Assembly: GCA_000182565.2 (NCBI GenBank)
Contig: KQ257457.1
Length of the DNA stretch: 64,000 nucleotides
Direction: 5' to 3' (one strand)
From: Spizellomyces punctatus DAOM BR117
Taxonomy: Eukaryota
The notes under the pieces were generated by a model. That model was not told the origin of the DNA. It ran no database searches and worked only from the letters and a program-made list of their open reading frames with translations. The position numbers were made by a program, and so were the translations under genes. The stretch's first letter is position 1; each line of letters opens with the position of its first letter. Positions 55,024 through 64,000 of the stretch are shown piece after piece.

Positions 55024-55542
55024 ATGGCGGAACCCACCCCTCAGTTACAACATCTACCTCGCTTGCCCGGAGAGGTCATCGACAATATCCTTCTCTATGT
55101 CCAGAACCCATTGACTCGCTTTCGTTTCGCTGTCACCCTCAGGAGGATCCTTGTGCGCGACATCACCATCCCAGAACTGCCGCAATGCACGTGGCATGAA
55201 GCTGCCAGACTCGCCCGCACTGACTTGCTCCGCTGGTGGGATGCCCGTTGGCGGAAAGTAGGTGGGGTTCCCTCGCCTTCCTCCCTCTCCCGGCTCCAAG
55301 ACGCCGGCGTTGAAAGGGGTCATGTGGACGTCCTCCAGGTTTGGGCTTCTAGCTTGCCCAGATTCCATCCGAGGAAGAACCCGTACTATACTGCTTCCTT
55401 CAATGGCCAGGTCCAGGTCTTGCAGTGGCTCAAGGACATTGGATATCCTGTTGATGAGCTTCCCAGATTCCCCTACATGGATGATGCTTTTCGTGGTAAG
55501 CCCGCCCTCACTCTTCAGTGGTGGAAAGACAGCGGTTTGTAA
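55024..55542 (+). pseudogene. F-box-like + Trp-rich ankyrin-repeat gene interrupted by the LTR element
   Basis: LPRLPGEVIDNILLYV, then repeats WHEAARLARTDLLRWW / AGVERGHVDVLQVW / TASFNGQVQVLQWL / TLQWWKDSGL. The stop codon is supplied by the first bases of the LTR. Confidence 0.75.
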
Positions 55543-56137
55543 CGACGAGGACGTCTTCGAGAGATCGCGAGTAAGCCCAAATCGGACGCGGGAAGCACGA
55601 ATCGCGTGACCAACTCCACCGATTGGGTTACCGCGACCGAAAAAACCGGTTCGGAGAATGGCAATTGGCGCATTAGATTTCAGCGTGCCTCGTACAACCT
55701 GTGGAGGCCCGAGCCAGTGCGGAAAAGGAAGAGATCGGTACCGCCACCAATAAATCAGTTGCGGTGCAGCGACACCCATTAGTTTAGTTTAGTTTAACAG
55801 TTTATCCAAGAATCTTGTATAAAAAGGATGTATTCAATAAAATAAGTCGGGGGCAGAAGCCGTAGCGACAAAAAATCCCCATAACTCGCTTCTCAACTCC
55901 AATCTTAGGTTAACAGGAACCTAACAGAGCGCTTCAACGGCCTGATCACCCGTACCGAAGCCTCTAAATCCTGCTCGGTTCACAACTAACCGACTCTCCT
56001 TGCCTCTCGCCCCCAAGTCGCTACCGACGCCCAAAGAAAGGATTCGGAGACTATGATTCCTAGTACGGCCACCCACATAACCTGCTAGGAGACCCAAGTC
56101 GTCTTTACCGTAGTCTACCAACAAAAAATCCGTTACA
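55538..56137 (+). repeat. 5' LTR (600 bp)
   Basis: Inverted termini TGTAACG...CGTTACA; TATAAAA at 55818, AATAAA at 55836; first 172 nt identical to 63829-64000. Confidence 0.97.
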
Positions 56138-56152
56138 TGGTGGAGAAGCGCG
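56138..56152 (+). promoter_or_regulatory. Primer-binding site (tRNA-Ala-like)
   Basis: TGGTGGAGAAGCGCG directly after the LTR, complementary to a ...CUUCUCCACCA tRNA 3' end typical of tRNA-Ala. Confidence 0.75.
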
Positions 56153-56292
56153 ACGAACCGCCTTCCCCTCTCAAATTCAGCTGAAAACCTTATTCGGTCG
56201 TACCGAAACTCTTGCGCAAACCGAGATCCGCTCAGGTAGCTACTCGGAAACCTTTTCTCTCGTTTCGGAGACAGAACTTCACGAAACCGAGA

Positions 56293-59200
56293 ATGATGCC
56301 GGTCGAACGCTCACCAACGCGAGGCCGCTCACCTGTGATCCAGACTCGTAGTCAGGGTCCTGCGGAGGACGTCGAAGTCCCTCCCGCAACACGCCCAAGG
56401 CGTTCAGGGACCACTTCCGTCGAACCGGAAGCCCCTAACTTGGCCACGATGGCCTCTGAAGTGGCAGCGTTAAAAGAAGACATTGCCCGCTCGACTGCTG
56501 CAACGCAGTTGGCAACTCAAAACCTTACGGAACAGCTTCATAGGCTTTCCGAACGTCAGACAGCGGCGGATGAGCGCCTCGCACGAGCCTTAGAAGCCCT
56601 AGCGCATCGCCCGCTGCCTGAACAACCTCCCATAGCACGAGCTACAAGAGAACGGTCCGCAACCCCGTGGGAAACGGCGGACACACCAAGGGAGCGTACC
56701 GAACCAAGTTTTTCAGGTGCGGTGCCTCCAATCCAAGTGCCAGCGGCCCCGTGGGCCAGCGACACCAAGATCGATTCCTTGAAAGCAAAGGACGTACCCG
56801 AGTTTACGGGCAGAAGAAACCAAGACATTGAAGAATGGCTTAACAAAGTCCAACTTCTTCAAAACATTAGCGCAACGTCGGATGCCAGGATGGTACAGCT
56901 CCTACCAGCCATGATAGCCGAGAAAACCCCTGCTGACGCTTGGTTTTACACTCTGGAAGCCCAGGAAACTCGCTCATGGACCTGGAAAAGGTGGAAAGAG
57001 GAACTGCTTCGAGAGTTCCGAGATCCCCTAACCGAGTCCAAGTGCAAAACCGAATATGTGCGCTGCCATGCGAACCCCAAAGAATTTCGCAGCTTTCTCG
57101 CGTTCATCGACCACAAAACTCATCTCCGGCGCCTCGCTTATGGCGACCGGGCAAACATAGAATGTCCCGCTGACCAGCATTTCGACCTAATAGTCGAACA
57201 ATTGCCCAGCGACATCCAAATCATGGTCAAATCCTGTAACGTCACGAACCTGACCAAATTAAAAGACTTCCTGCGCCTTTATTTCGGCTCTGATGACACC
57301 AGAAAACGAGACCCTTGCTACAGCGGTGCTGCAGAAGCTCAGAAGAAGTCACAAAAGACCGGAACCGACAAAGGCCCTAAGCAGACGGCTCCGCATAAAA
57401 CCGGAAACCCCGAAAAGGGTCGCGATGGTCCTCAGAAGATGGTTCCGGACCCCAACAAGGAACCACCGGCACCCTGCAAATTCTGTCAGAAAAAGCATTG
57501 GAATGTTTTCTGCTGGCAGAACCCGAACCGAAAAGATCCTGAAGATGGAAAGAAAGGACCATATGGAGCACCCATGCCCTCAGGTTGGAAACCCAAACAG
57601 GAATCGAAGAAGGCGTACATAGTGGAGCTGGACTCGACGTCCGCTACCACCGAGACTCTTTTTTCGGCTTCGGAACTGGAAAGAACGGAAGCCGCTAATC
57701 AAGGATTCCACACCATCGGGTTCTTTCATTCACCCAAGCACTCGGAATCAACAATTTTGATGACCGCACCTCTTTCCAAGGTCACGGTGACCAAGGAAGA
57801 GGACCCCCGCACGCCCACGCAGGGCTGGGACCGAGTCTGGGACAACATAGCCATCATCTGGGGCACCCCGCAAGTGGCTCTGATGATGGGCAACAACCCC
57901 CGCGCGCTCAGCTTCTTCGCCAAAGAACCGAAGCGAGGCGCCGGGCACCTCGGGAACGACCCCTACGCAGTCGCGTGGAGTTCCCACCACCTCTACATCG
58001 CTGCCGCAGCCGAAGCTGACAAGGATCGAATCCTGCGAAAGGTCCGAGAAGACGGTACCCCTCGTTTGATTCTCCTTGCCTGGATAAAGCTCGACGAGCG
58101 CGAGAAATTCTTGATGTGGAGCTCTGAAGATCCTGTTATCTTTGATGCGTACGCCAACCTGCAACTGGTGGCATTTCTCCTGACAGGCAATATCGTTCGC
58201 TCAGACTATTATTATCGTCGCGGAAACCCCAAATTTCGGCACGTTAAAGACCATCCACGTCTCCAAAGACACGAAGAGAGCGAACGGACGCGTATAGTCA
58301 TGCTGGCTATCGAACAAGTTGCTCGCCAGAATAAAACAACAAAACCACAAAACGACAAAACTAGAGAACACTTTGAGAGTGTGATCAAGGCTACGGAAGC
58401 AACAATTAACGACATCGCGCCCCATTTCGAGATCGCGGTGCCTTCTATCAACGCCTTCTACTCAGTAGATTTAGGCGATGTACTCAAAAGCCAGACTAAG
58501 ACCCAAATGCAGCCTTGCTGGACGCTAGCCGTCATCGCGCAGCTCTGGGCACCTGTGGTACTAGACACAGGGGCCTGCGAGTCTCTGATTTCCGACACGT
58601 ACCAAGGCCTTCTGTTCTCCGAAACCGATTTGCAGGATGCGGAAACGATGGCTTTCAACGGCATTGGTGGACGTATCTCATCTACCAAGACAGTATGCCT
58701 CGAAACTTCCCTCAGAGGCCGCGGCGGAGAATACCTGACTTTCCGCGCCTACTTTCGGGTCATCGCGTATGGGAAACCTCTCATCATCCTAGCCAACGAC
58801 GTTTTGGGACATTTGAAACTCCAAACCTTGGTTCAGGAACCCCCGTTACCCAGTTTCGCGGTGACGCTCAAGAATCCAGACATCCTTATCCCCTGCTCCA
58901 TAACGGATGAGCTGGACACCGATCACATGCGCGGCACGCCATACAAGACCAAGCAGGGTGAATTCATGAAGGATGTGTCAATGCCACGGCTGACCAAAGC
59001 CAAAGCTCAGAAGTCTAGATTAACCATGTTAATCACGGGACAGACGCGCGTGGCAGCCCAAACTTTTCTCATCGAAAACCCTCTTGAGGCCACCGCTGCT
59101 AGCTCAACGGTCCCGTTAGGCCTCAAACTGTCCACCGCGACCCATAATTCGGTTGCGGACCCCGAAGAGAACATTTCCAAAGAAGAATGGCAGACACTTC

Positions 59201-62200
59201 GGAACAAATGGAACCTCGACTCTACGGAGAGGGCTCCAGGGGCCTTCGAAGCCCAATTAAAAGACGCGGAACGTTTCCACGTCGATCTCAAGCGACCCAA
59301 ACCCGTGGTCTGGGCCCTAATCAACATTCTACGACACTTCCATCAAGCCTTCAGCTATGAGGGTCATCTCATAGGGAACTACACCAAGATTCCTTATGCG
59401 CCTCGATTTATCTCGGCTCCGCCACCCCTTTCGAGGCCACGGTCGTACTCTCCGTTGGAGCGGACAGCCCTCGAGACGGAGCGAGACACCATGATGGGGC
59501 TTCAGAGGTGGAAACGAACCACCGAAGTAACCTTTGCCAGCGATCCTGTTATCATTCGCTATGCAGACAAACCCCCGCGCGTAGCCTTCGACTATCGCCG
59601 AGCCAACGACTGCATGGCCTGGGATCCATATCCCTTTCCCATCATGCTCGACATCCTGAACTGGATCGTCGCAGTCCCATTCCGATACATATCGGGAGGT
59701 GACGCAAACAAAGGATTCTACCAAATCGCCATCACCGATGCGTCGGTACGCAAATGGCTCGCGCTCAGACTCCATGACGGCATCTACGAACCACTCTTTA
59801 TGCCCTTCGGACCCAAGACTGCCCCCTCGCACTTCTGTCGGGTGATGGACGACACCTTGGGTCCCTCCAAATGGCGAAATATCAACAACTTCGTCGACGA
59901 TATCCACACACGAGCGGAGACAGCCGCGGAAGCCCTAGACGCCATTGCGGACTGGCTCGACCGCTTTTCCAGAGCCAAACTCACCCTAAGACTCGACAAG
60001 TGTCAATGGCTCTTTCACCAGCTCACGGCCCTCGGTTTCGTTGCCTCCTCTCAGGGTCTCGCTACCGATCCAGACAAGGTCGCAACCATAGTCGATTGGC
60101 CACAACCCAAATTCATAGGTGACCTATGGTCATTCGTGGGTCTCCTAGGGTTCTACGCCCAATTCATTTCTCGCTACGCGGAACTCGTCCGACCCCTGCA
60201 AGACGCTATCCAAGAGGGCGTTCGCGAATACCGAGACCTTAAAAAGGGTCGCGCTGACCCGAAGAAAGGCGCTGAAAAGCTCAATTCACCATCCATGCTC
60301 GACACGGCGGTGGCCCCTACAATCACAGCCACCGGAGCCCGATTTGAGGTTTCGCAACATCCGAAATCTAGCTCCTCAGACCTACCGGCGGTCAATCTAC
60401 GCCAATCATCGCTGGCGGACTTACCCATTGACCCCTTTTGTGTCGGACGCCTTGCTCGCAAGCGCCCCGACCAAGGTCTGCGCAGATTTATCGCGAAGCG
60501 TGAAGTTTCATGGACCGATTCCCGAAACTCTGCCTTTGCAGCCGCCAAGCAGGCTCTGACAACAGCTCCAGTGCTCGCGGCACCCAGAAAAGGGTTCCCC
60601 TACACCCTTCACAGTGACGCTTCCTACACAGCATTTAATGTCACGCTCGAACAGTTACAGCCGGATGCTTCTAAACGCCCGCTGTGCTACCATTCCCGAG
60701 GCACCACCACCTCGGAAAAGAAGGCCCCCCCCGTCGAACTCGAGGCCGGATGCCTCATTTGGGGCCTCGGAAAACTCCGCCCATACCTCGAAGGCCTGCC
60801 TTTCACGGTCATTACTGATCACCGAGCTCTTTTGTGGCTCACTAAATACAAAGGCGAGAACCGTAAGCTTCTCCGCTGGGCCCTCGATCTTAGTTACTGG
60901 TCCGAATGGATGACAATCGTTCACAAACCAGGACATTTTCACATTGTCGCTGATACACTTTCACGGCTACTAGGAGCGGAAACCCTACTCTGCTCCACCG
61001 CGACCCAAATATGGGTGTCGAAACGCGGAAGACGACGGCTGCGCACCACACCAGCTGCTCTCACACCTTCCTCGACACTGGCAGATGCCGTCTTTCGTCT
61101 GGCCTTACAGCCTGCACTCATTGCCGCCATCCGCGCTGGCCTCACCGGCCAGCTCCACCCCATAGCCCAACAGGCCCGCACGCTCCTATGGGAGACCAGC
61201 CCCGACACGTACACTACCGCCGACACGCGCTTTCTTCAGGACTGGCAACGTGCAGATAACCTGCTGTGGCACCGTTTTTCAGTCTCCGAAGACCTTTGGC
61301 GCCTTTACGTGCCCCCTGCTTGCACCCCTGAGGTGCGCAAGCTTTTTCACGAGGGGGGAGGACACTTCGGATTCGAAAGAACCTACGCTAGAGCTGCAGC
61401 GCAAGTCTGGTGGCCGAAAATGGCACAAGATTTCAGAAAACACTGCGCAGGATGTGAAACCTGTCAACGCTCAAAAAGGGTACCGCAACTGATTCCGGGG
61501 TTGCTGAAACCCATACCACCAGCTCCGGGACGCTGGACAGTCATCACGACTGACTTCGTAACCAAGCTCCCACTTACTTCCAGAGGGTACGACGCCTTTT
61601 GGTTAATAGCATGTAAATGCTCAAAGAGGATCCACGTATGGCCCCTCAAGAGCACTGCGACAGCTATTCAGGTCGCGGAACTCTTTATAGAGCGCTACGT
61701 CCCATTGCACGGCATCCCGGAGACCATTATCTCGGACCGCAACTCCAAATTTACGAGTCGATTTTGGCAGGAGGTCTGCAAAAACCTAAAGATTAATCAA
61801 GAGCTCACCACAGCCTACCACCCTCAAGGTGATGGACAATCAGAAAGAGACAACGCAACGGTCTTGCAGGTCCTTACCACAATGGTCAACACCCGATTAG
61901 ATGACTGGGACACCTTTCTTCCGGTTGCGGAATTCATTATCAACGATACGGTACACGAGGCGACAAAAATGACGCGATTCAGAATGGACCTAGGCTATGA
62001 GCCCCACAATCCACTGGCGGACATCGTCGAAAGGCCGTCAGAAACCAGAAATGCAGATGCGGAGGAGCTCTGTAAACACCTCGGCGACCTAAACATCCTT
62101 ATCCGAGATCTGATGATCGAAGCCCAGGATTCGCAGAAAAGATATTACGATTTATCGCGACGACATTTGGAGTTCCGGAGAGGAGATAAGGTGCTTCTGA

Positions 62201-63771
62201 GCACGAAAAACCTAGCAGGGTATGAGTCCAAGATCGCTCCGAAATGGCTGGGACCAGTCACGGTGACCGACTGTAACCCTCTCCGCGACAACTACGAGTT
62301 AAAACTGCCAGACAAGATGAGACGACTTCATCCATGGTTTCACATATCGAAATTACGTCCGTACCAGAAGCCTGTCGACGCCGAAACTGAGGAAAAGGTC
62401 GCGGAAGCACAAGCGGAGGATTCCGACGCTTCAGATGGCGAGTTTGAAGTGGAAGCGATAGTAGACCATCGAACCAGGCGCGGAAAACGTCAATTTCGAA
62501 TACGTTGGTCCGGATACCCACCCCATGAGGATACCTGGGAACCAGAGGAAGCCCTAACAGAGGCTTCCGAAGCCTTAGAAGAGTACTGGAGATCCAGAGC
62601 TCCCACTAGCGCGCTAGTAGAGGACTCTTTGGTAGTCAGCCTTGCAGGCGACGCCCCGGAAGATACGGCTTATGCTTCCGACCACCAATGCTTCGCGGTT
62701 TATCCGGACGATAGCTCACGTGATAATCACGCCCTCTCACCAGAAAGAAAACCAGTTTCGCGTGGCTTACCTCACCAGTCGAGAACGCCACACCAAGCCT
62801 CCCGATCACGCTTACGCGCGTCCGAGCTGTCAAAATCAGCCGGCGACGACCTTAAAAGGACGCCCCTGCACGCTCCCCCTCTTTTTTCTTCTTCAACCGC
62901 CCACGACCTACTTCCCTTACACACTCACTCTGCTTCGCAAACCCCTTCTATCGACACCGAAACTAAAACTTCCATTTCTAACACAATGAACACCGATCTC
63001 AGAGGACAAGCAGGAGTGAGCGTACCCTCCACGTACATGTCCGGCTACCCTTGGGAGGAAGACTCGGGCGACTTCGAGGCCGAGGGCGTGCTGGATCGCC
63101 TTGGGGTTGCGATCGCTACCTGGGTTCACTCCTGGGTTCATCAGCTTCGGACCAACCCCAACGCGCCGCTGCAGACTCCAGGGCATGAGTTTTGGCTGGG
63201 AGTCGACGCTCCGAAACCTTACGCGGTGGGCCAGCCCCTCACAAACCACATCGCGGACCCCTACAGCAAGGCCACCGATGGTGGTGAAGCAGCGGTCGGA
63301 ATAGTTGCTGACGCGAAAAAACCCGGAAAAAGAGGGCGCCCAGCTCCGTGCGCCGCTTGGCTCGACCGCGGGGTTCCCCAACACGAGGCGGGAAGCCGAA
63401 AAACGGCTCCGTTCACCGATTGGCCGAACGACGACGCCCACGAGTTTGCGTCCGCCGTCATTGAAGCAGCTAGGACGGTGCTCCTAAGGACGGCGAACGC
63501 AGCGGAAGCCTCTGCAAGGCTCACCAGACCCCGACATCACGAGCACGCGGAGTACCATTTCCGCGCGACAAACCTGAAAAGGGCCGCGGAGACCTTTACG
63601 GCCCTCTACGTAACCAGAACTGGCCCCGACGTGACCCCGGGTACCATCGTTCGTACCGCAACAGATCAAATCTGGTTTTGTTGCAACGTCAGTGGCCGTG
63701 CCAGTATCATCTGGGTCGTGAACCAAGATGCAGATGAAGCGGACCCCACAGATCCGGTACCGACCTGGTAA
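56293..63771 (+). CDS. Gag-Pol polyprotein with extra domains
   Basis: Capsid (VPEFTG..IEEWL), CKFCQKKHWNVFC knuckle (57475-57513), protease VLDTGA (~58558), RT FVDD (59890), RNase H (HSDAS, ELEA, TDH, ADTLSR), integrase HHCC, DDE (TTDF, SDR, SERDN) and GPY/F-like KWLGP, chromodomain FEVEAIVDHR..IRWSGY..DTWEPE (~62440-62590). Confidence 0.97.
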   Translation: MMPVERSPTRGRSPVIQTRSQGPAEDVEVPPATRPRRSGTTSVEPEAPNLATMASEVAALKEDIARSTAATQLATQNLTEQLHRLSERQTAADERLARALEALAHRPLPEQPPIARATRERSATPWETADTPRERTEPSFSGAVPPIQVPAAPWASDTKIDSLKAKDVPEFTGRRNQDIEEWLNKVQLLQNISATSDARMVQLLPAMIAEKTPADAWFYTLEAQETRSWTWKRWKEELLREFRDPLTESKCKTEYVRCHANPKEFRSFLAFIDHKTHLRRLAYGDRANIECPADQHFDLIVEQLPSDIQIMVKSCNVTNLTKLKDFLRLYFGSDDTRKRDPCYSGAAEAQKKSQKTGTDKGPKQTAPHKTGNPEKGRDGPQKMVPDPNKEPPAPCKFCQKKHWNVFCWQNPNRKDPEDGKKGPYGAPMPSGWKPKQESKKAYIVELDSTSATTETLFSASELERTEAANQGFHTIGFFHSPKHSESTILMTAPLSKVTVTKEEDPRTPTQGWDRVWDNIAIIWGTPQVALMMGNNPRALSFFAKEPKRGAGHLGNDPYAVAWSSHHLYIAAAAEADKDRILRKVREDGTPRLILLAWIKLDEREKFLMWSSEDPVIFDAYANLQLVAFLLTGNIVRSDYYYRRGNPKFRHVKDHPRLQRHEESERTRIVMLAIEQVARQNKTTKPQNDKTREHFESVIKATEATINDIAPHFEIAVPSINAFYSVDLGDVLKSQTKTQMQPCWTLAVIAQLWAPVVLDTGACESLISDTYQGLLFSETDLQDAETMAFNGIGGRISSTKTVCLETSLRGRGGEYLTFRAYFRVIAYGKPLIILANDVLGHLKLQTLVQEPPLPSFAVTLKNPDILIPCSITDELDTDHMRGTPYKTKQGEFMKDVSMPRLTKAKAQKSRLTMLITGQTRVAAQTFLIENPLEATAASSTVPLGLKLSTATHNSVADPEENISKEEWQTLRNKWNLDSTERAPGAFEAQLKDAERFHVDLKRPKPVVWALINILRHFHQAFSYEGHLIGNYTKIPYAPRFISAPPPLSRPRSYSPLERTALETERDTMMGLQRWKRTTEVTFASDPVIIRYADKPPRVAFDYRRANDCMAWDPYPFPIMLDILNWIVAVPFRYISGGDANKGFYQIAITDASVRKWLALRLHDGIYEPLFMPFGPKTAPSHFCRVMDDTLGPSKWRNINNFVDDIHTRAETAAEALDAIADWLDRFSRAKLTLRLDKCQWLFHQLTALGFVASSQGLATDPDKVATIVDWPQPKFIGDLWSFVGLLGFYAQFISRYAELVRPLQDAIQEGVREYRDLKKGRADPKKGAEKLNSPSMLDTAVAPTITATGARFEVSQHPKSSSSDLPAVNLRQSSLADLPIDPFCVGRLARKRPDQGLRRFIAKREVSWTDSRNSAFAAAKQALTTAPVLAAPRKGFPYTLHSDASYTAFNVTLEQLQPDASKRPLCYHSRGTTTSEKKAPPVELEAGCLIWGLGKLRPYLEGLPFTVITDHRALLWLTKYKGENRKLLRWALDLSYWSEWMTIVHKPGHFHIVADTLSRLLGAETLLCSTATQIWVSKRGRRRLRTTPAALTPSSTLADAVFRLALQPALIAAIRAGLTGQLHPIAQQARTLLWETSPDTYTTADTRFLQDWQRADNLLWHRFSVSEDLWRLYVPPACTPEVRKLFHEGGGHFGFERTYARAAAQVWWPKMAQDFRKHCAGCETCQRSKRVPQLIPGLLKPIPPAPGRWTVITTDFVTKLPLTSRGYDAFWLIACKCSKRIHVWPLKSTATAIQVAELFIERYVPLHGIPETIISDRNSKFTSRFWQEVCKNLKINQELTTAYHPQGDGQSERDNATVLQVLTTMVNTRLDDWDTFLPVAEFIINDTVHEATKMTRFRMDLGYEPHNPLADIVERPSETRNADAEELCKHLGDLNILIRDLMIEAQDSQKRYYDLSRRHLEFRRGDKVLLSTKNLAGYESKIAPKWLGPVTVTDCNPLRDNYELKLPDKMRRLHPWFHISKLRPYQKPVDAETEEKVAEAQAEDSDASDGEFEVEAIVDHRTRRGKRQFRIRWSGYPPHEDTWEPEEALTEASEALEEYWRSRAPTSALVEDSLVVSLAGDAPEDTAYASDHQCFAVYPDDSSRDNHALSPERKPVSRGLPHQSRTPHQASRSRLRASELSKSAGDDLKRTPLHAPPLFSSSTAHDLLPLHTHSASQTPSIDTETKTSISNTMNTDLRGQAGVSVPSTYMSGYPWEEDSGDFEAEGVLDRLGVAIATWVHSWVHQLRTNPNAPLQTPGHEFWLGVDAPKPYAVGQPLTNHIADPYSKATDGGEAAVGIVADAKKPGKRGRPAPCAAWLDRGVPQHEAGSRKTAPFTDWPNDDAHEFASAVIEAARTVLLRTANAAEASARLTRPRHHEHAEYHFRATNLKRAAETFTALYVTRTGPDVTPGTIVRTATDQIWFCCNVSGRASIIWVVNQDADEADPTDPVPTW

Positions 63772-63818
63772 TTGACGTCCCAACACCCCCGCTCGGAGCG
63801 CCGGTGCGTTGGCTCTTC

Positions 63819-63828
63819 AAAGGGGGGA
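63819..63828 (+). promoter_or_regulatory. Polypurine tract
   Basis: AAAGGGGGGA immediately before the TG of the 3' LTR. Confidence 0.93.
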
Positions 63829-64000
63829 TGTAACGACGAGGACGTCTTCGAGAGATCGCGAGTAAGCCCAAATCGGACGCGGGAAGCACGAATCGCGTGA
63901 CCAACTCCACCGATTGGGTTACCGCGACCGAAAAAACCGGTTCGGAGAATGGCAATTGGCGCATTAGATTTCAGCGTGCCTCGTACAACCTGTGGAGGCC
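63829..64000 (+). repeat. 3' LTR (partial)
   Basis: Identical by eye to 55538-55709. Confidence 0.97.

What the first reader, a model, noticed from the sequence alone, without database searches (positions are those of the whole stretch)
57826..58188. Catalytically erased DIRS-type N6-adenine methyltransferase-like domain inside a gypsy chromovirus polyprotein
Seen: an extra ~120-aa globular-looking segment between the Gag zinc knuckle and the protease, W..VWDNIAIIWGTPQVALMMGNNPRALSFFAKEPKRGAGHLGNDPYAVAWSSHHLYIAAAAEADKDRILRKVREDGTPRLILLAW...LQLVAFLLTG. Knowledge: DIRS1 tyrosine-recombinase retrotransposons carry a phage-Dam-like MTase domain, which I recall as I..WG.P.VDLFAS..N..L..F.S..P..GA..DAF...W...LYA(F/N)PPF..I.RVL.KI..D...ILIAP.W...L.L.AW.LSG. 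The order and spacing agree along the whole segment, but the SAM-binding DLFAS reads ALMMG (57877-57891) and the catalytic (N/F)PPF reads AAAA (58000-58011). Inference: a gypsy lineage captured the MTase fold and kept it in frame in a young, intact element as a pseudoenzyme. It might bind nucleic acid, read 6mA or act as a decoy. That matters because early-diverging fungi mark active genes with 6mA at ApT, and the element also has a chromodomain.
Basis: partly seen in the sequence, partly recalled or inferred. Interest (0 to 1): 0.9.

Follow-up and report, generated by a model that had tools for sequence, protein, structure and literature searches.

The report
Dead methyltransferase-like domain in chytrid retrotransposon
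An intact gypsy-type retrotransposon of a chytrid fungus carries, between its Gag zinc knuckle and its protease, a conserved relative of the methyltransferase-like domain of DIRS retrotransposons that has lost the motifs needed for catalysis, so it probably has a non-enzymatic job.

Summary
Window 57826-58188 encodes exactly the peptide quoted, inside one 2519-codon open frame (56212-63771) of an LTR chromovirus. The resemblance to the DIRS MT domain is real homology. A profile of the segment and its relatives from named Spizellomyces and Geranomyces records matches 46 DIRS-type domains fetched from metagenomes: hhalign probability 98.7%, E 2.8e-16, 128 columns. With the motif used to fetch them cut off it is still 96.6%, E 6.5e-10; the best of 200 shuffles scored 21 against 57. 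The DIRS-type set in turn matches phage Dam PF05869 at 92.9%. No library profile (Pfam, NCBIfam, PHROGs) sees the segment directly. The Pro-Pro of motif IV, kept in 44 and 46 of 46 DIRS-type domains, is lost in all seven chytrid sequences. DLFA survives in Geranomyces but reads ALMM in the window. The domain is about as conserved as Gag (36% against 29%) and more than the linker to the protease (21%). The MTase fold was not shown: both models were poor. One nuance: 39 of 46 DIRS-type domains already read FPP, not NPP, and a 2016 review calls them inactive. A 2026 preprint describes Dam-carrying LTR elements, but its main text names no fungi.

The parts
55538..56137 (+). 5' LTR, 600 bp, starting TGTAAC and ending GTTACA (inverted termini)
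   Evidence: An exact 172-nt direct repeat joins 55538-55709 and 63829-64000. The ends were read from the sequence. The 3' end of the LTR is inferred from the GTTACA/TGG junction.
56138..56155 (+). Putative primer-binding site (TGGTGGAGAAGCGCGACG) directly after the LTR
   Evidence: Read from the sequence. The assignment rests on position and the TGG start. The tRNA was not identified.
56293..63771 (+). Single Gag-Pol polyprotein frame, open from 56212, first ATG at 56293, stop codon included
   Evidence: Two proteins from a named S. punctatus record are nearly identical: P0018 has 4 differences in 704 aligned residues and P0020 has 5 in 1071.
57475..57513 (+). CCHC zinc knuckle (CKFCQKKHWNVFC), the nucleocapsid-like end of Gag
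   Evidence: Read from the translation. Residues 416-440 are 56% identical to Geranomyces P0011.
57823..58218 (+). MT-like domain homologous to the DIRS-type MT (Dam/PCIF1-like) domain. This is the range aligned by hhalign.
   Evidence: hhalign A3 against 46 DIRS-type domains: probability 98.7%, E 2.8e-16, query positions 12-143. Window lineage alone: 88.4%, E 2.8e-6. HMM hit at aa 541-623.
57859..57891 (+). WGTPQVALMMG, the counterpart of DIRS-type WGxPx(V/I)DLFA and phage Dam FGFxLDxAAS. D, F and A are replaced here but kept in Geranomyces.
   Evidence: Combined alignment. Alignment of DIRS-type and phage Dam profiles. The SAM-binding role of this motif is inferred and was not tested.
57991..58014 (+). 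LYIAAAAE, the counterpart of motif IV (DIRS-type YAFPP, phage Dam WCNPPY). Both prolines are lost.
   Evidence: In the DIRS-type set the prolines are present in 44 of 46 and 46 of 46 sequences. All 7 chytrid sequences lack both.
58027..58083 (+). RILRKVREDGTPRLILLAW, the best-kept stretch. It matches DIRS-type (R)VLxKv...(L/I)ILIAP, a helix followed by a strand.
   Evidence: hhalign alignment. Secondary structure of the low-confidence model: H75-87, E92-100.
58159..58188 (+). LQLVAFLLTG, the counterpart of the DIRS-type C-terminal LxLxAWxLSG
58189..58260 (+). A 24-residue tail (NIVRSDYYYRRGNPKFRHVKDHPR), strongly conserved in the chytrid elements and not part of the DIRS-type domain
   Evidence: 54% identity to P0011 and 50% to P0006. 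DIRS-type frames end soon after LSG.
58555..58575 (+). Aspartic protease active-site motif VVLDTGA
   Evidence: Read from the translation. Relatives are named 'Peptidase A2 domain-containing protein' by UniRef. Pfam gave no protease hit.
59689..60894 (+). Reverse transcriptase (aa 1160-1276) and RNase H (aa 1434-1561)
   Evidence: Pfam RVT_1 E 5.9e-10; RT_RNaseH_2 E 1.4e-22
61309..62364 (+). Integrase: H2C2 zinc domain, rve core, Tf2-1-like SH3
   Evidence: Pfam E 5.2e-18, 3.8e-08 and 1.8e-08
62443..62592 (+). Chromodomain
   Evidence: Pfam Chromo E 6.4e-16
62593..63768 (+). About 390 residues of C-terminal extension after the chromodomain, with no family match
   Evidence: No Pfam hit at E<=1. 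Not studied further.
63819..63828 (+). Polypurine tract AAAGGGGGGA directly before the 3' LTR
   Evidence: Read from the sequence
63829..64000 (+). 3' LTR, cut off by the end of the window

Best explanation
The segment is a diverged descendant of the MT domain of DIRS-type tyrosine-recombinase retrotransposons. That domain is a small Dam/PCIF1-like N6-adenine methyltransferase module. A chromovirus lineage of Spizellomycetales chytrids took it up and placed it at the Gag-Pol junction, after the nucleocapsid zinc knuckle and before the protease. It has since been kept in frame.

Shown here:
- homology to the DIRS-type domain;
- the position in the polyprotein;
- loss of the Pro-Pro of motif IV in every chytrid copy, and of D, F and A of the DLFA motif in the window's lineage;
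- conservation of the remaining scaffold between Spizellomyces and Geranomyces elements;
- absence from the nearest other gypsy polyproteins.

Inferred:
- It cannot methylate.
- It serves the element as a non-catalytic module. The most likely role is binding the element's RNA or cDNA next to nucleocapsid, in the way METTL14 serves METTL3 (recalled). This is also what Iyer et al. proposed for the DIRS1 domain.
- Whether the protease releases it as a separate protein is unknown.
For: - The family is small. A phmmer search of 1.84 billion representatives found 6 proteins at E<=0.001. Three are real relatives: P0005 at 8e-23, P0006 at 9e-21 and P0004. Their sources name them Geranomyces variabilis, G. 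michiganensis and Spizellomyces punctatus.
- P0011 shows the same order: Gag, CCHC knuckle, domain, protease.
- hhalign of A3 (7 chytrid sequences) against A5 (46 DIRS-type domains): 98.7%, E 2.8e-16, 128 columns.
- With the fetching motif removed: 96.6%, E 6.5e-10, score 57.4. Two hundred column shuffles gave mean 11.6, sd 2.4, maximum 21.0. The reversed query scored 13.7.
- The three Spizellomyces sequences alone: 88.4%, E 2.8e-6, score 39.6, against a shuffle maximum of 21.3.
- Pairwise phmmer, window segment against L070: 21.9 bits, E 3.5e-7 in a set of 46.
- The DIRS-type set is what it seems. RVT_1 lies upstream of the domain in 9 of 10 full frames scanned. Of its 46 members, 24 hit PF05869 and 10 hit PCIF1_WW at E<=1. 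Its profile matches 10 phage Dam sequences at 92.9%, E 3.7e-7, with FPP aligned on NPP.
- Motif loss: the prolines are present in 44 of 46 and 46 of 46 DIRS-type domains and in 0 of 7 chytrid sequences. Of 32 DIRS-type columns conserved at 80% or more, the window keeps 13 and P0011 keeps 18.
- Constraint, window against P0011: domain 36% identical, Gag-like core 29%, linker to the protease 21%, protease start 43%.
- Lineage restriction: 0 of 34 nearest full-length pol relatives carry the domain. Their best score was 5.1 bits, against 266 bits for the positive control.
- Atlas leads for P0006 residues 10-165: a cluster in which 14% of members carry PF05869 (score 0.88) and a PCIF1_WW cluster (0.86). 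These are leads only.
Against: - No library profile detects the segment or its relatives: Pfam at E<=1 and E<=10, NCBIfam and PHROGs at E<=10.
- Direct hhalign against phage Dam gives nothing (probability 0.7%). The link to a true methyltransferase is therefore transitive, through the DIRS-type set.
- The fold was not confirmed. The models had pLDDT 42 and 51. The structure search gave only generic alpha/beta sandwich matches at Z about 7 and no methyltransferase.
- The DIRS-type sequences were fetched with a motif taken from the Geranomyces relatives, and I dropped 9 of 55 frames by eye. The test without the motif answers the first point, not the second.
- Conservation was measured as protein identity between three lineages, not as dN/dS. 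The knuckle-to-domain linker is nearly as conserved as the domain (34% against 36%).
- No function was tested. Nucleic-acid binding is an analogy.
- I did not compare the domain with cellular PCIF1 itself.
Confidence: 0.72

Rival explanations
1. The domain is a neutral passenger. A DIRS fragment recombined into an ancestral element, and the frame stays open only because a stop there would kill the downstream pol.
For: All catalytic motifs are gone. The knuckle-to-domain linker is almost as conserved as the domain (34% against 36%). No dN/dS is available. In a single-frame polyprotein any insert must stay open.
Against: Staying open does not need sequence conservation, yet 41 positions are invariant across four sequences from three lineages. 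The hydrophobic scaffold, including RILRKVRxD..P.LIL and L.AFLLTGN, is kept, while the linker to the protease has dropped to 15-21% identity. The domain has no internal deletions in three lineages that differ by more than 60%.
Confidence: 0.15
2. The domain is still an active adenine methyltransferase with a non-canonical active site, depositing 6mA on cDNA as the 2026 preprint proposes for DAM-LTRs.
For: The host is reported to have high 6mA (PMC12695648, passages read). The preprint finds DAM-LTRs mainly in AMT1-bearing species (Results read). Geranomyces keeps DLFA.
Against: The Pro-Pro is lost in 7 of 7 sequences. In the window, D, F and A of DLFA are lost too, and so is the P.WP..W stretch. 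From general knowledge of N6-adenine methyltransferases (recalled), the (D/N/S)PP(Y/F/W) loop holds the flipped adenine. Even Dam domains of transposable elements that keep NPP gave no 6mA in E. coli in the preprint (Results read).
Confidence: 0.04
3. The domain came not from a DIRS element but from the host's own PCIF1-like gene or another cellular methyltransferase, and it resembles DIRS domains only because those belong to the same clade.
For: Iyer et al. place DIRS1 MT domains in the PCIF1 clade (PMC4738411, passage read). Ten of 46 DIRS-type domains hit PCIF1_WW weakly. The Atlas lists a PCIF1_WW cluster at 0.86. I made no comparison with PCIF1 proteins.
Against: The match to the DIRS-type profile runs end to end, from the N-terminal helix and WGxP to the C-terminal LxLxAWxLSG, with the same small size. 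No chytrid member hits PCIF1_WW or any other Pfam family.
Confidence: 0.06
4. There is no homology. The segment is a lineage-specific Gag-protease spacer whose likeness to the DIRS consensus is chance.
For: No library profile hits. The window sequence alone scores only 15-21 bits.
Against: hhalign E 2.8e-16. It is E 6.5e-10 without the fetching motif, and about 19 sd above the shuffles. The window lineage alone scores E 2.8e-6.
Confidence: 0.03

Closest known systems
MT domain of DIRS1-like tyrosine-recombinase retrotransposons (RT-RH-MT pol; Goodwin and Poulter; reviewed in PMC3266345, passages read)
   Same: It is the same small domain with collinear motifs: WGxP, (DLFA), D..W, Y-A, VLxKv, LIL, LxLxA.LL(S/T)G. 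The profile match is significant. The function is unknown in both. In both, the Asn of motif IV is usually absent.
   Different: In DIRS elements the domain follows RNase H, and the element has a tyrosine recombinase and no LTR-type integrase. Here it precedes the protease in an integrase-bearing, chromodomain-bearing LTR element. The Pro-Pro and the P.WP..W stretch, nearly invariant in the DIRS-type set, are lost. About 18 residues before the last strand are missing.
DAM-LTR retrotransposons (bioRxiv 10.64898/2026.05.21.726589; abstract, Results parts 1-2, Methods section 13 and Discussion read)
   Same: These are Ty3/gypsy elements, some with chromodomains, that captured the DIRS-derived Dam-like domain. 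They are found mostly in hosts with AMT1 and 6mA. S. punctatus is reported as such a host (PMC12695648).
   Different: The described lineages are from Chlorophyta, Ochrophyta, Ichthyosporea, Pyropia and Euglena. The words fungi, chytrid and Spizellomyces do not occur in the main text; the supplements could not be seen. Those elements were found with an HMM at E<1e-5 and are said to keep Asn-Pro-Pro. This one is invisible to Pfam Dam and has no Pro-Pro. The one position the text describes is between integrase and RT, not between Gag and the protease.
Phage/bacterial Dam, Pfam PF05869 (for example phage T1 Dam, E 1.7e-70)
   Same: It is a distant relative through the DIRS-type profile (92.9%), with the same order of motifs.
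   Different: There is no direct match and no hmmscan hit. NPPY is absent and the C-terminal half differs. The segment is not a member of the family by Pfam's own threshold.
PCIF1/CAPAM-clade methyltransferases and inactive methyltransferase partners such as METTL14 (PMC4738411, passages read; the role of METTL14 partly recalled)
   Same: This is a precedent for a methyltransferase fold that has lost catalysis and is kept as a nucleic-acid-binding or scaffolding unit. Iyer et al. propose this for DIRS1 domains.
   Different: No comparison with these proteins was made here. The chytrid domain is much smaller and sits inside a retroelement polyprotein.
dUTPase of retroviruses (recalled from general knowledge, not checked here)
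   Same: It is an accessory enzyme domain that lies after RNase H in some lineages and between nucleocapsid and protease in others. These are the same two insertion sites as for the MT domain in DIRS elements and in this chromovirus.
   Different: It is an unrelated fold, and it is catalytically active.

Membership tests
DIRS-type MT domain | Significant profile similarity over the whole domain | tested here: met
   hhalign 98.7%, E 2.8e-16, 128 columns. Without the fetching motif: 96.6%, E 6.5e-10.
DIRS-type MT domain | Conserved motifs WGxPx(V/I)DLFA and YA(F/Y)PP | tested here: not met
   The window reads WGTPQVALMM and YIAAA. Geranomyces keeps DLFA but reads YAHVA or YAHIH. The prolines are present in 44 of 46 and 46 of 46 DIRS-type sequences.
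DIRS-type MT domain | Position after RT-RNase H in the pol of a tyrosine-recombinase element | tested here: not met
   Here the domain lies between the CCHC knuckle and the protease of an element with rve integrase and LTRs.
Pfam PF05869 Dam | hmmscan score over the gathering threshold of 28.1 bits | tested here: not met
   No hit at E<=1 for the window or at E<=10 for P0003, P0005 and P0006.
Pfam PF05869 Dam | Catalytic NPPY motif | tested here: not met
   The aligned position reads AAA in the window.
Class-I (Rossmann-like) methyltransferase fold | Predicted or solved structure with that fold | tested here: inconclusive
   The models had pLDDT 42 and 51. The C-terminal half shows a strand-helix-strand-helix-strand pattern. 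The VIA-align wide search gave only generic matches at Z up to 7.3.
DAM-LTR retrotransposons (2026 preprint) | Ty3/gypsy LTR element that encodes a DIRS-derived Dam-like domain | tested here: met
DAM-LTR retrotransposons (2026 preprint) | Dam domain detectable by HMM at E<1e-5, with a conserved Asn-Pro-Pro pocket | tested here: not met
   The criteria come from Methods section 13 and the Results of the preprint.
Chromovirus (Ty3/gypsy with chromodomain) | Order PR-RT-RH-IN, a C-terminal chromodomain, and LTRs | tested here: met
   Pfam hits in that order. LTR, primer-binding site and polypurine tract. The protease rests on its motif only.

The most novel reading that the evidence does not exclude
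The dead MT-like domain is a retrotransposon-encoded pseudo-methyltransferase that plugs the element into the host's 6mA system. It might bind ApT/6mA DNA or the host AMT1 complex. New cDNA copies, or the chromodomain-guided integration sites, would then acquire the mark of active genes without the element methylating anything itself. This would also explain why Dam domains of transposable elements show no activity of their own.
Probability: 0.1. Interest if true: 0.9.

Novelty: new variant of a known kind. Interest (0 to 1): 0.6.

Why it matters
- The capture of the DIRS Dam-like domain by LTR retrotransposons was described only in a 2026 preprint, which reads it as a way to deposit 6mA.
- This element adds a fungal lineage that the preprint's HMM screen could not see. 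The domain sits at a different place in the polyprotein and is kept although its catalytic loop is gone.
- Together with the FPP state of most DIRS-type domains sampled here, this points to a conserved non-catalytic role for the whole domain family.
- The host is favourable for a test. S. punctatus is reported to have high 6mA, with 5mC confined to transposons (PMC12695648). It is cited there as genetically transformable.

Tried and rejected
- **Library profiles on the segment and its relatives.** Pfam, NCBIfam and PHROGs gave nothing relevant.
- **PDB by sequence.** The single sequence, the A2 profile and the A5 profile gave only hits at E>=0.3.
- **Structure.** AlphaFold gave pLDDT 42 for the single sequence and 51 with 7 sequences. 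The VIA-align wide search of the second model gave only common alpha/beta sandwiches (Z up to 7.3) and no methyltransferase.
- **Direct hhalign against 10 phage Dam sequences:** probability 0.7%.
- **Word-indexed protein searches.** These returned only Spizellomyces and Geranomyces proteins. DIRS proteins were probably crowded out by the word filter.
- **Scans that found nothing.** Viral contigs had no relative of A2 and no match to the motif pattern. Genome contigs had nothing for phage T1 Dam.
- **ESM Atlas.** The window segment gave nothing informative.
- **Own genome:** none is held.
- **RNA.** No RNA holder was listed by the run search. Reads were laid from one RNA run with the same species label. 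Only 188 reads were laid, 170 of them only partly. Depth was 0 to 0.6 over the domain. Twenty-seven of 30 bins had some depth, almost all on one strand, and there were no joints in the domain. This is too thin to say more than that the family is not wholly silent.
- **Representative-search hits judged as noise.** P0008 and P0009 were read and are repeat proteins that match 26 residues. P0007 was not fetched.
- **Frames dropped from the DIRS-type set.** Nine of 55 frames were dropped by eye. L050, L056, L085, L108, L114, L115, L122 and L125 lack every downstream motif. L099 has a garbled middle.
Full report
**1. What is there**

They are residues 539-659 of one open frame, 56212-63771. It has 2519 codons and its first ATG is at 56293.

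Pfam finds these families downstream, in this order:
- RVT_1
- RT_RNaseH
- Integrase_H2C2
- rve
- SH3_Tf2-1
- Chromo

Upstream of the segment lies a CCHC knuckle (57475-57513). About 120 residues downstream lies the protease motif VVLDTGA (58555-58575).

The frame is flanked as follows:
- A 600-bp LTR at 55538-56137, starting TGTAAC and ending GTTACA, followed by TGG.
- A polypurine tract at 63819-63828.
- The start of the 3' LTR at 63829, which the window cuts off. The 172 comparable bases are identical.

The rest of the window holds ordinary fungal genes: Nup192, PP2C, Sel1, VWA and a MARCHF6-like gene.

**2. Relatives of the segment**

No library profile sees the segment. The PDB holds no relative by sequence.

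A full phmmer scan of 1.84 billion representative proteins found six proteins at E<=0.001. Three are real:
- P0005: E 8e-23, 39% identity.
- P0006: E 9e-21.
- P0004: a fragment.

Two of the other three are repeat proteins that match over 26 residues. I did not fetch the third.

The sources name the relatives Geranomyces variabilis, G. michiganensis and Spizellomyces punctatus DAOM BR117. P0018 and P0020 of S. punctatus are nearly identical to the window's frame, with 4 differences in 704 and 5 in 1071 aligned residues. P0011 of G. variabilis shows the same order: Gag, knuckle, domain, protease.

**3. Is it homologous to the DIRS MT domain?**

I had no DIRS sequences, so I fetched some. I back-translated W-G-x-P-x-(I/V)-D-L-F-A from the Geranomyces proteins and scanned the metagenome contigs with the pattern.

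- 55 of the 120 have at least 15 open codons before the motif and 128 after it.
- I dropped nine of these by eye. Eight have none of the downstream motifs and one has a garbled middle.
- The remaining 46 share the consensus EW.L...V...I...WG.P..DLFA.R.N...P.F.S..PDP.A.A.DAL...W....AYAFPP..L...VL.K........ILIAP.WP...WFP.LL.LL...P..LP....LL.QP.....HP.P..L.L.AW.LS.

These 46 domains are of the DIRS type:
- In 9 of 10 full frames scanned, RVT_1 lies upstream and the domain ends the frame.
- Of the 46, 24 hit PF05869 Dam at E<=1 (best 1e-5) and 10 hit PCIF1_WW at E<=1 (best 0.0027). No other family is hit by more than one member.
- Their profile matches ten phage Dam sequences at 92.9%, E 3.7e-7. 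FPP aligns on NPP and LIAP.WP..W on LLP.D.ST.WF. The phage set includes phage T1 Dam, which hits PF05869 at E 1.7e-70.

The chytrid alignment A3 (7 sequences) was then compared with this set.

| Comparison | hhalign probability | E-value | Score | Columns | Control |
|---|---|---|---|---|---|
| A3 against 46 DIRS-type domains | 98.7% | 2.8e-16 | 96.2 | 128 (whole domain) | not run |
| Same, everything up to and including DLFA/LMMG cut from both sides | 96.6% | 6.5e-10 | 57.4 | 102 | 200 column shuffles: mean 11.6, sd 2.4, max 21.0; reversed query 13.7 |
| Three Spizellomyces sequences alone | 88.4% | 2.8e-6 | 39.6 | 79 | shuffle max 21.3 |

The second row matters because the set was fetched with a motif that the Geranomyces rows carry. 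Cutting the motif off removes that bias.

Two further checks agree:
- An HMM of the 46 domains hits the 2519-residue polyprotein only at 541-623, with 15.2 bits. The segment alone scores 21.0 bits against 5.6 for the best of 1000 shuffles.
- Pairwise, the window segment matches L070 at E 3.5e-7 in a set of 46.

I take the homology as shown. The direct comparison with phage Dam fails (probability 0.7%). The tie to a true methyltransferase is therefore transitive.

**4. What is kept and what is lost**

This comes from the joint alignment.

Of the 32 columns conserved at 80% or more in the DIRS-type set, the window keeps 13 and P0011 keeps 18.

Kept:
- W-G-x-P, the L of DLFA, the D and W of DA...W, and the Y before motif IV.
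- The helix and strand RILRKVREDG..RLILLA, which matches (R)VLxKv....ILIA.
- A proline further on.
- The last strand LQLVAFLLTG, which matches LxLxAWxLSG.

Lost in all seven chytrid sequences:
- Both prolines of motif IV. They are present in 44 of 46 and 46 of 46 DIRS-type domains.
- The P.WP..W stretch.
- About 18 residues before the last strand.

Lost only in the Spizellomyces lineage: D, F and A of DLFA.

One of them was erased after the split from the Geranomyces elements.

**5. A nuance on 'erased'**

In my DIRS-type sample the residue before Pro-Pro is F in 39, Y in 5, N in 1 and H in 1 of 46. The donor family, as sampled here, mostly lacks the catalytic Asn/Asp already. The sample is biased by the fetching motif.

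Iyer, Zhang and Aravind (PMC4738411, passage read) place the DIRS1 domains in the PCIF1 clade. They state that all copies are likely inactive, and that the domains may bind the element's transcripts or mimic PCIF1.

The 2026 preprint (10.64898/2026.05.21.726589; abstract, Results parts 1-2, Methods section 13 and Discussion read) reports the opposite emphasis:
- Asn-Pro-Pro is conserved in the Dam domains that it found at E<1e-5.
- It found no 6mA when these domains were expressed in E. coli.

The chytrid domain goes further than either description, because it has lost the prolines as well.

**6. Is it kept by selection?**

No DNA of the relatives was on hand, so dN/dS could not be computed. 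As a proxy I compared the window polyprotein with P0011 region by region.

| Region | Identity to P0011 |
|---|---|
| N-terminal part | 20% |
| Gag-like core | 29% |
| CCHC knuckle | 56% |
| Linker, knuckle to domain | 34% |
| MT-like domain | 36% |
| 24-residue tail after the domain | 54% |
| Linker, domain to protease | 21% |
| Protease start | 43% |

Against P0006, the domain is 36% identical, the linker to the protease 15% and the protease 44%.

The domain is thus about as conserved as the element's structural parts and more than the linker that follows it. It has no internal deletions in three lineages. This favours function but does not prove it.

**7. Distribution**

Of the 34 closest full-length pol relatives (1385 residues or more, E<=1e-30), none carries the domain. 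Their best score was 5.1 bits, against 266 bits for the window as a control.

Within what these databases hold, the domain at this position is confined to the elements from the named Spizellomyces and Geranomyces records.

**8. Structure and expression**

Both structure predictions were poor. The single sequence gave pLDDT 42 and the 7-sequence alignment gave pLDDT 51 with pTM 0.51.

The second model shows strand-helix-strand-helix-strand in the C-terminal half. This is what strand 4, helix D, strand 5, helix E and strand 6 of a class-I methyltransferase would give. However, the fold search returned only generic sandwiches, with Z up to 7.3. The fold is not shown.

One RNA run with the same species label gave 188 reads on the internal region, 170 of them laid only partly. 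They lie almost all on one strand and in 27 of 30 bins. There are no joints in the domain. This is thin.

**9. Explanation and rivals**

- **Best reading (0.72).** A Spizellomycetales chromovirus captured a DIRS-type MT domain at the Gag-Pol junction and keeps it as a non-catalytic module. It most likely binds nucleic acid beside nucleocapsid.
- **Neutral passenger (0.15).**
- **Origin from cellular PCIF1 rather than from DIRS (0.06).**
- **Still active (0.04).**
- **Chance resemblance (0.03).**

The boldest reading that the data allow is a pseudo-methyltransferase that couples the element to the host's 6mA machinery (0.1).

**10. Novelty**

DIRS-derived Dam domains in LTR elements are in print since May 2026. 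The preprint's main text names no fungus.

Searches of the paper library found no report of this element:
- 'Spizellomyces' with 'chromovirus'.
- 'DIRS1' with 'PCIF1'.
- 'DIRS', 'methyltransferase domain' and 'retrotransposon'.

It is a new variant of a known kind on three counts: a new host group, a new position in the polyprotein and a new, more degenerate state.

Noticed in passing
window 62593-63768: The polyprotein runs on for about 390 residues after the chromodomain, almost to the polypurine tract, with no Pfam match at E<=1. This is an unusually long C-terminal extension for a chromovirus.
   Followed up: no
window 58189-58260: A 24-residue tail after the MT-like domain (NIVRSDYYYRRGNPKFRHVKDHPR) is the best conserved stretch between the Spizellomyces and Geranomyces elements, at 50-54% identity. 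It has no counterpart in DIRS-type domains. It might be a protease cleavage site or a lineage-specific addition.
   Followed up: partly
whole element 56212-63771, compared with proteins P0003, P0004, P0013, P0014, P0017, P0019: Older copies in the named S. punctatus record differ from the window copy mostly by changes that one C>T or G>A at a CpG explains. Examples: P0003, 37 of 55 differences, 35 of them at CpG; P0014, 28 of 38, all at CpG. This fits decay of 5mC-methylated transposons, as reported for this species (PMC12695648, passage read).
   Followed up: partly
loci L012-L131 (metagenome contigs): In 46 DIRS-type MT domains, motif IV reads (F/Y)PP in 44 and NPP in only 1. The 2026 preprint describes Asn-Pro-Pro as nearly universal in the Dam domains it detected. 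The two samples were drawn differently: a motif pattern here, an HMM at E<1e-5 there.
   Followed up: partly
L055:1923-4754 (-) and L064:1806-4055 (-): Two metagenome frames carry RT upstream and a variant MT domain. It reads WINPPV or LYAHPPV, has a different middle part, and has no LSG end. L055 is the only NPP member of the set, and it gives a weak PF05869 hit (E 0.0014).
   Followed up: no
window 57748-58164 (-): A 138-codon antisense open frame overlaps the domain. The laid RNA reads lie almost all on the sense strand. It is probably not a gene.
   Followed up: no
window 62304-62365: One contig of run X1 skips 60 bases here, inside the integrase SH3 to chromodomain region. It is probably a copy with an in-frame deletion.
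   Followed up: no
window 55054-55788 (-) and 63666-63998 (-): The LTR holds an open frame on the minus strand. It has 241 codons at the 5' LTR, where it runs into the flanking DNA. It is probably fortuitous.
   Followed up: no
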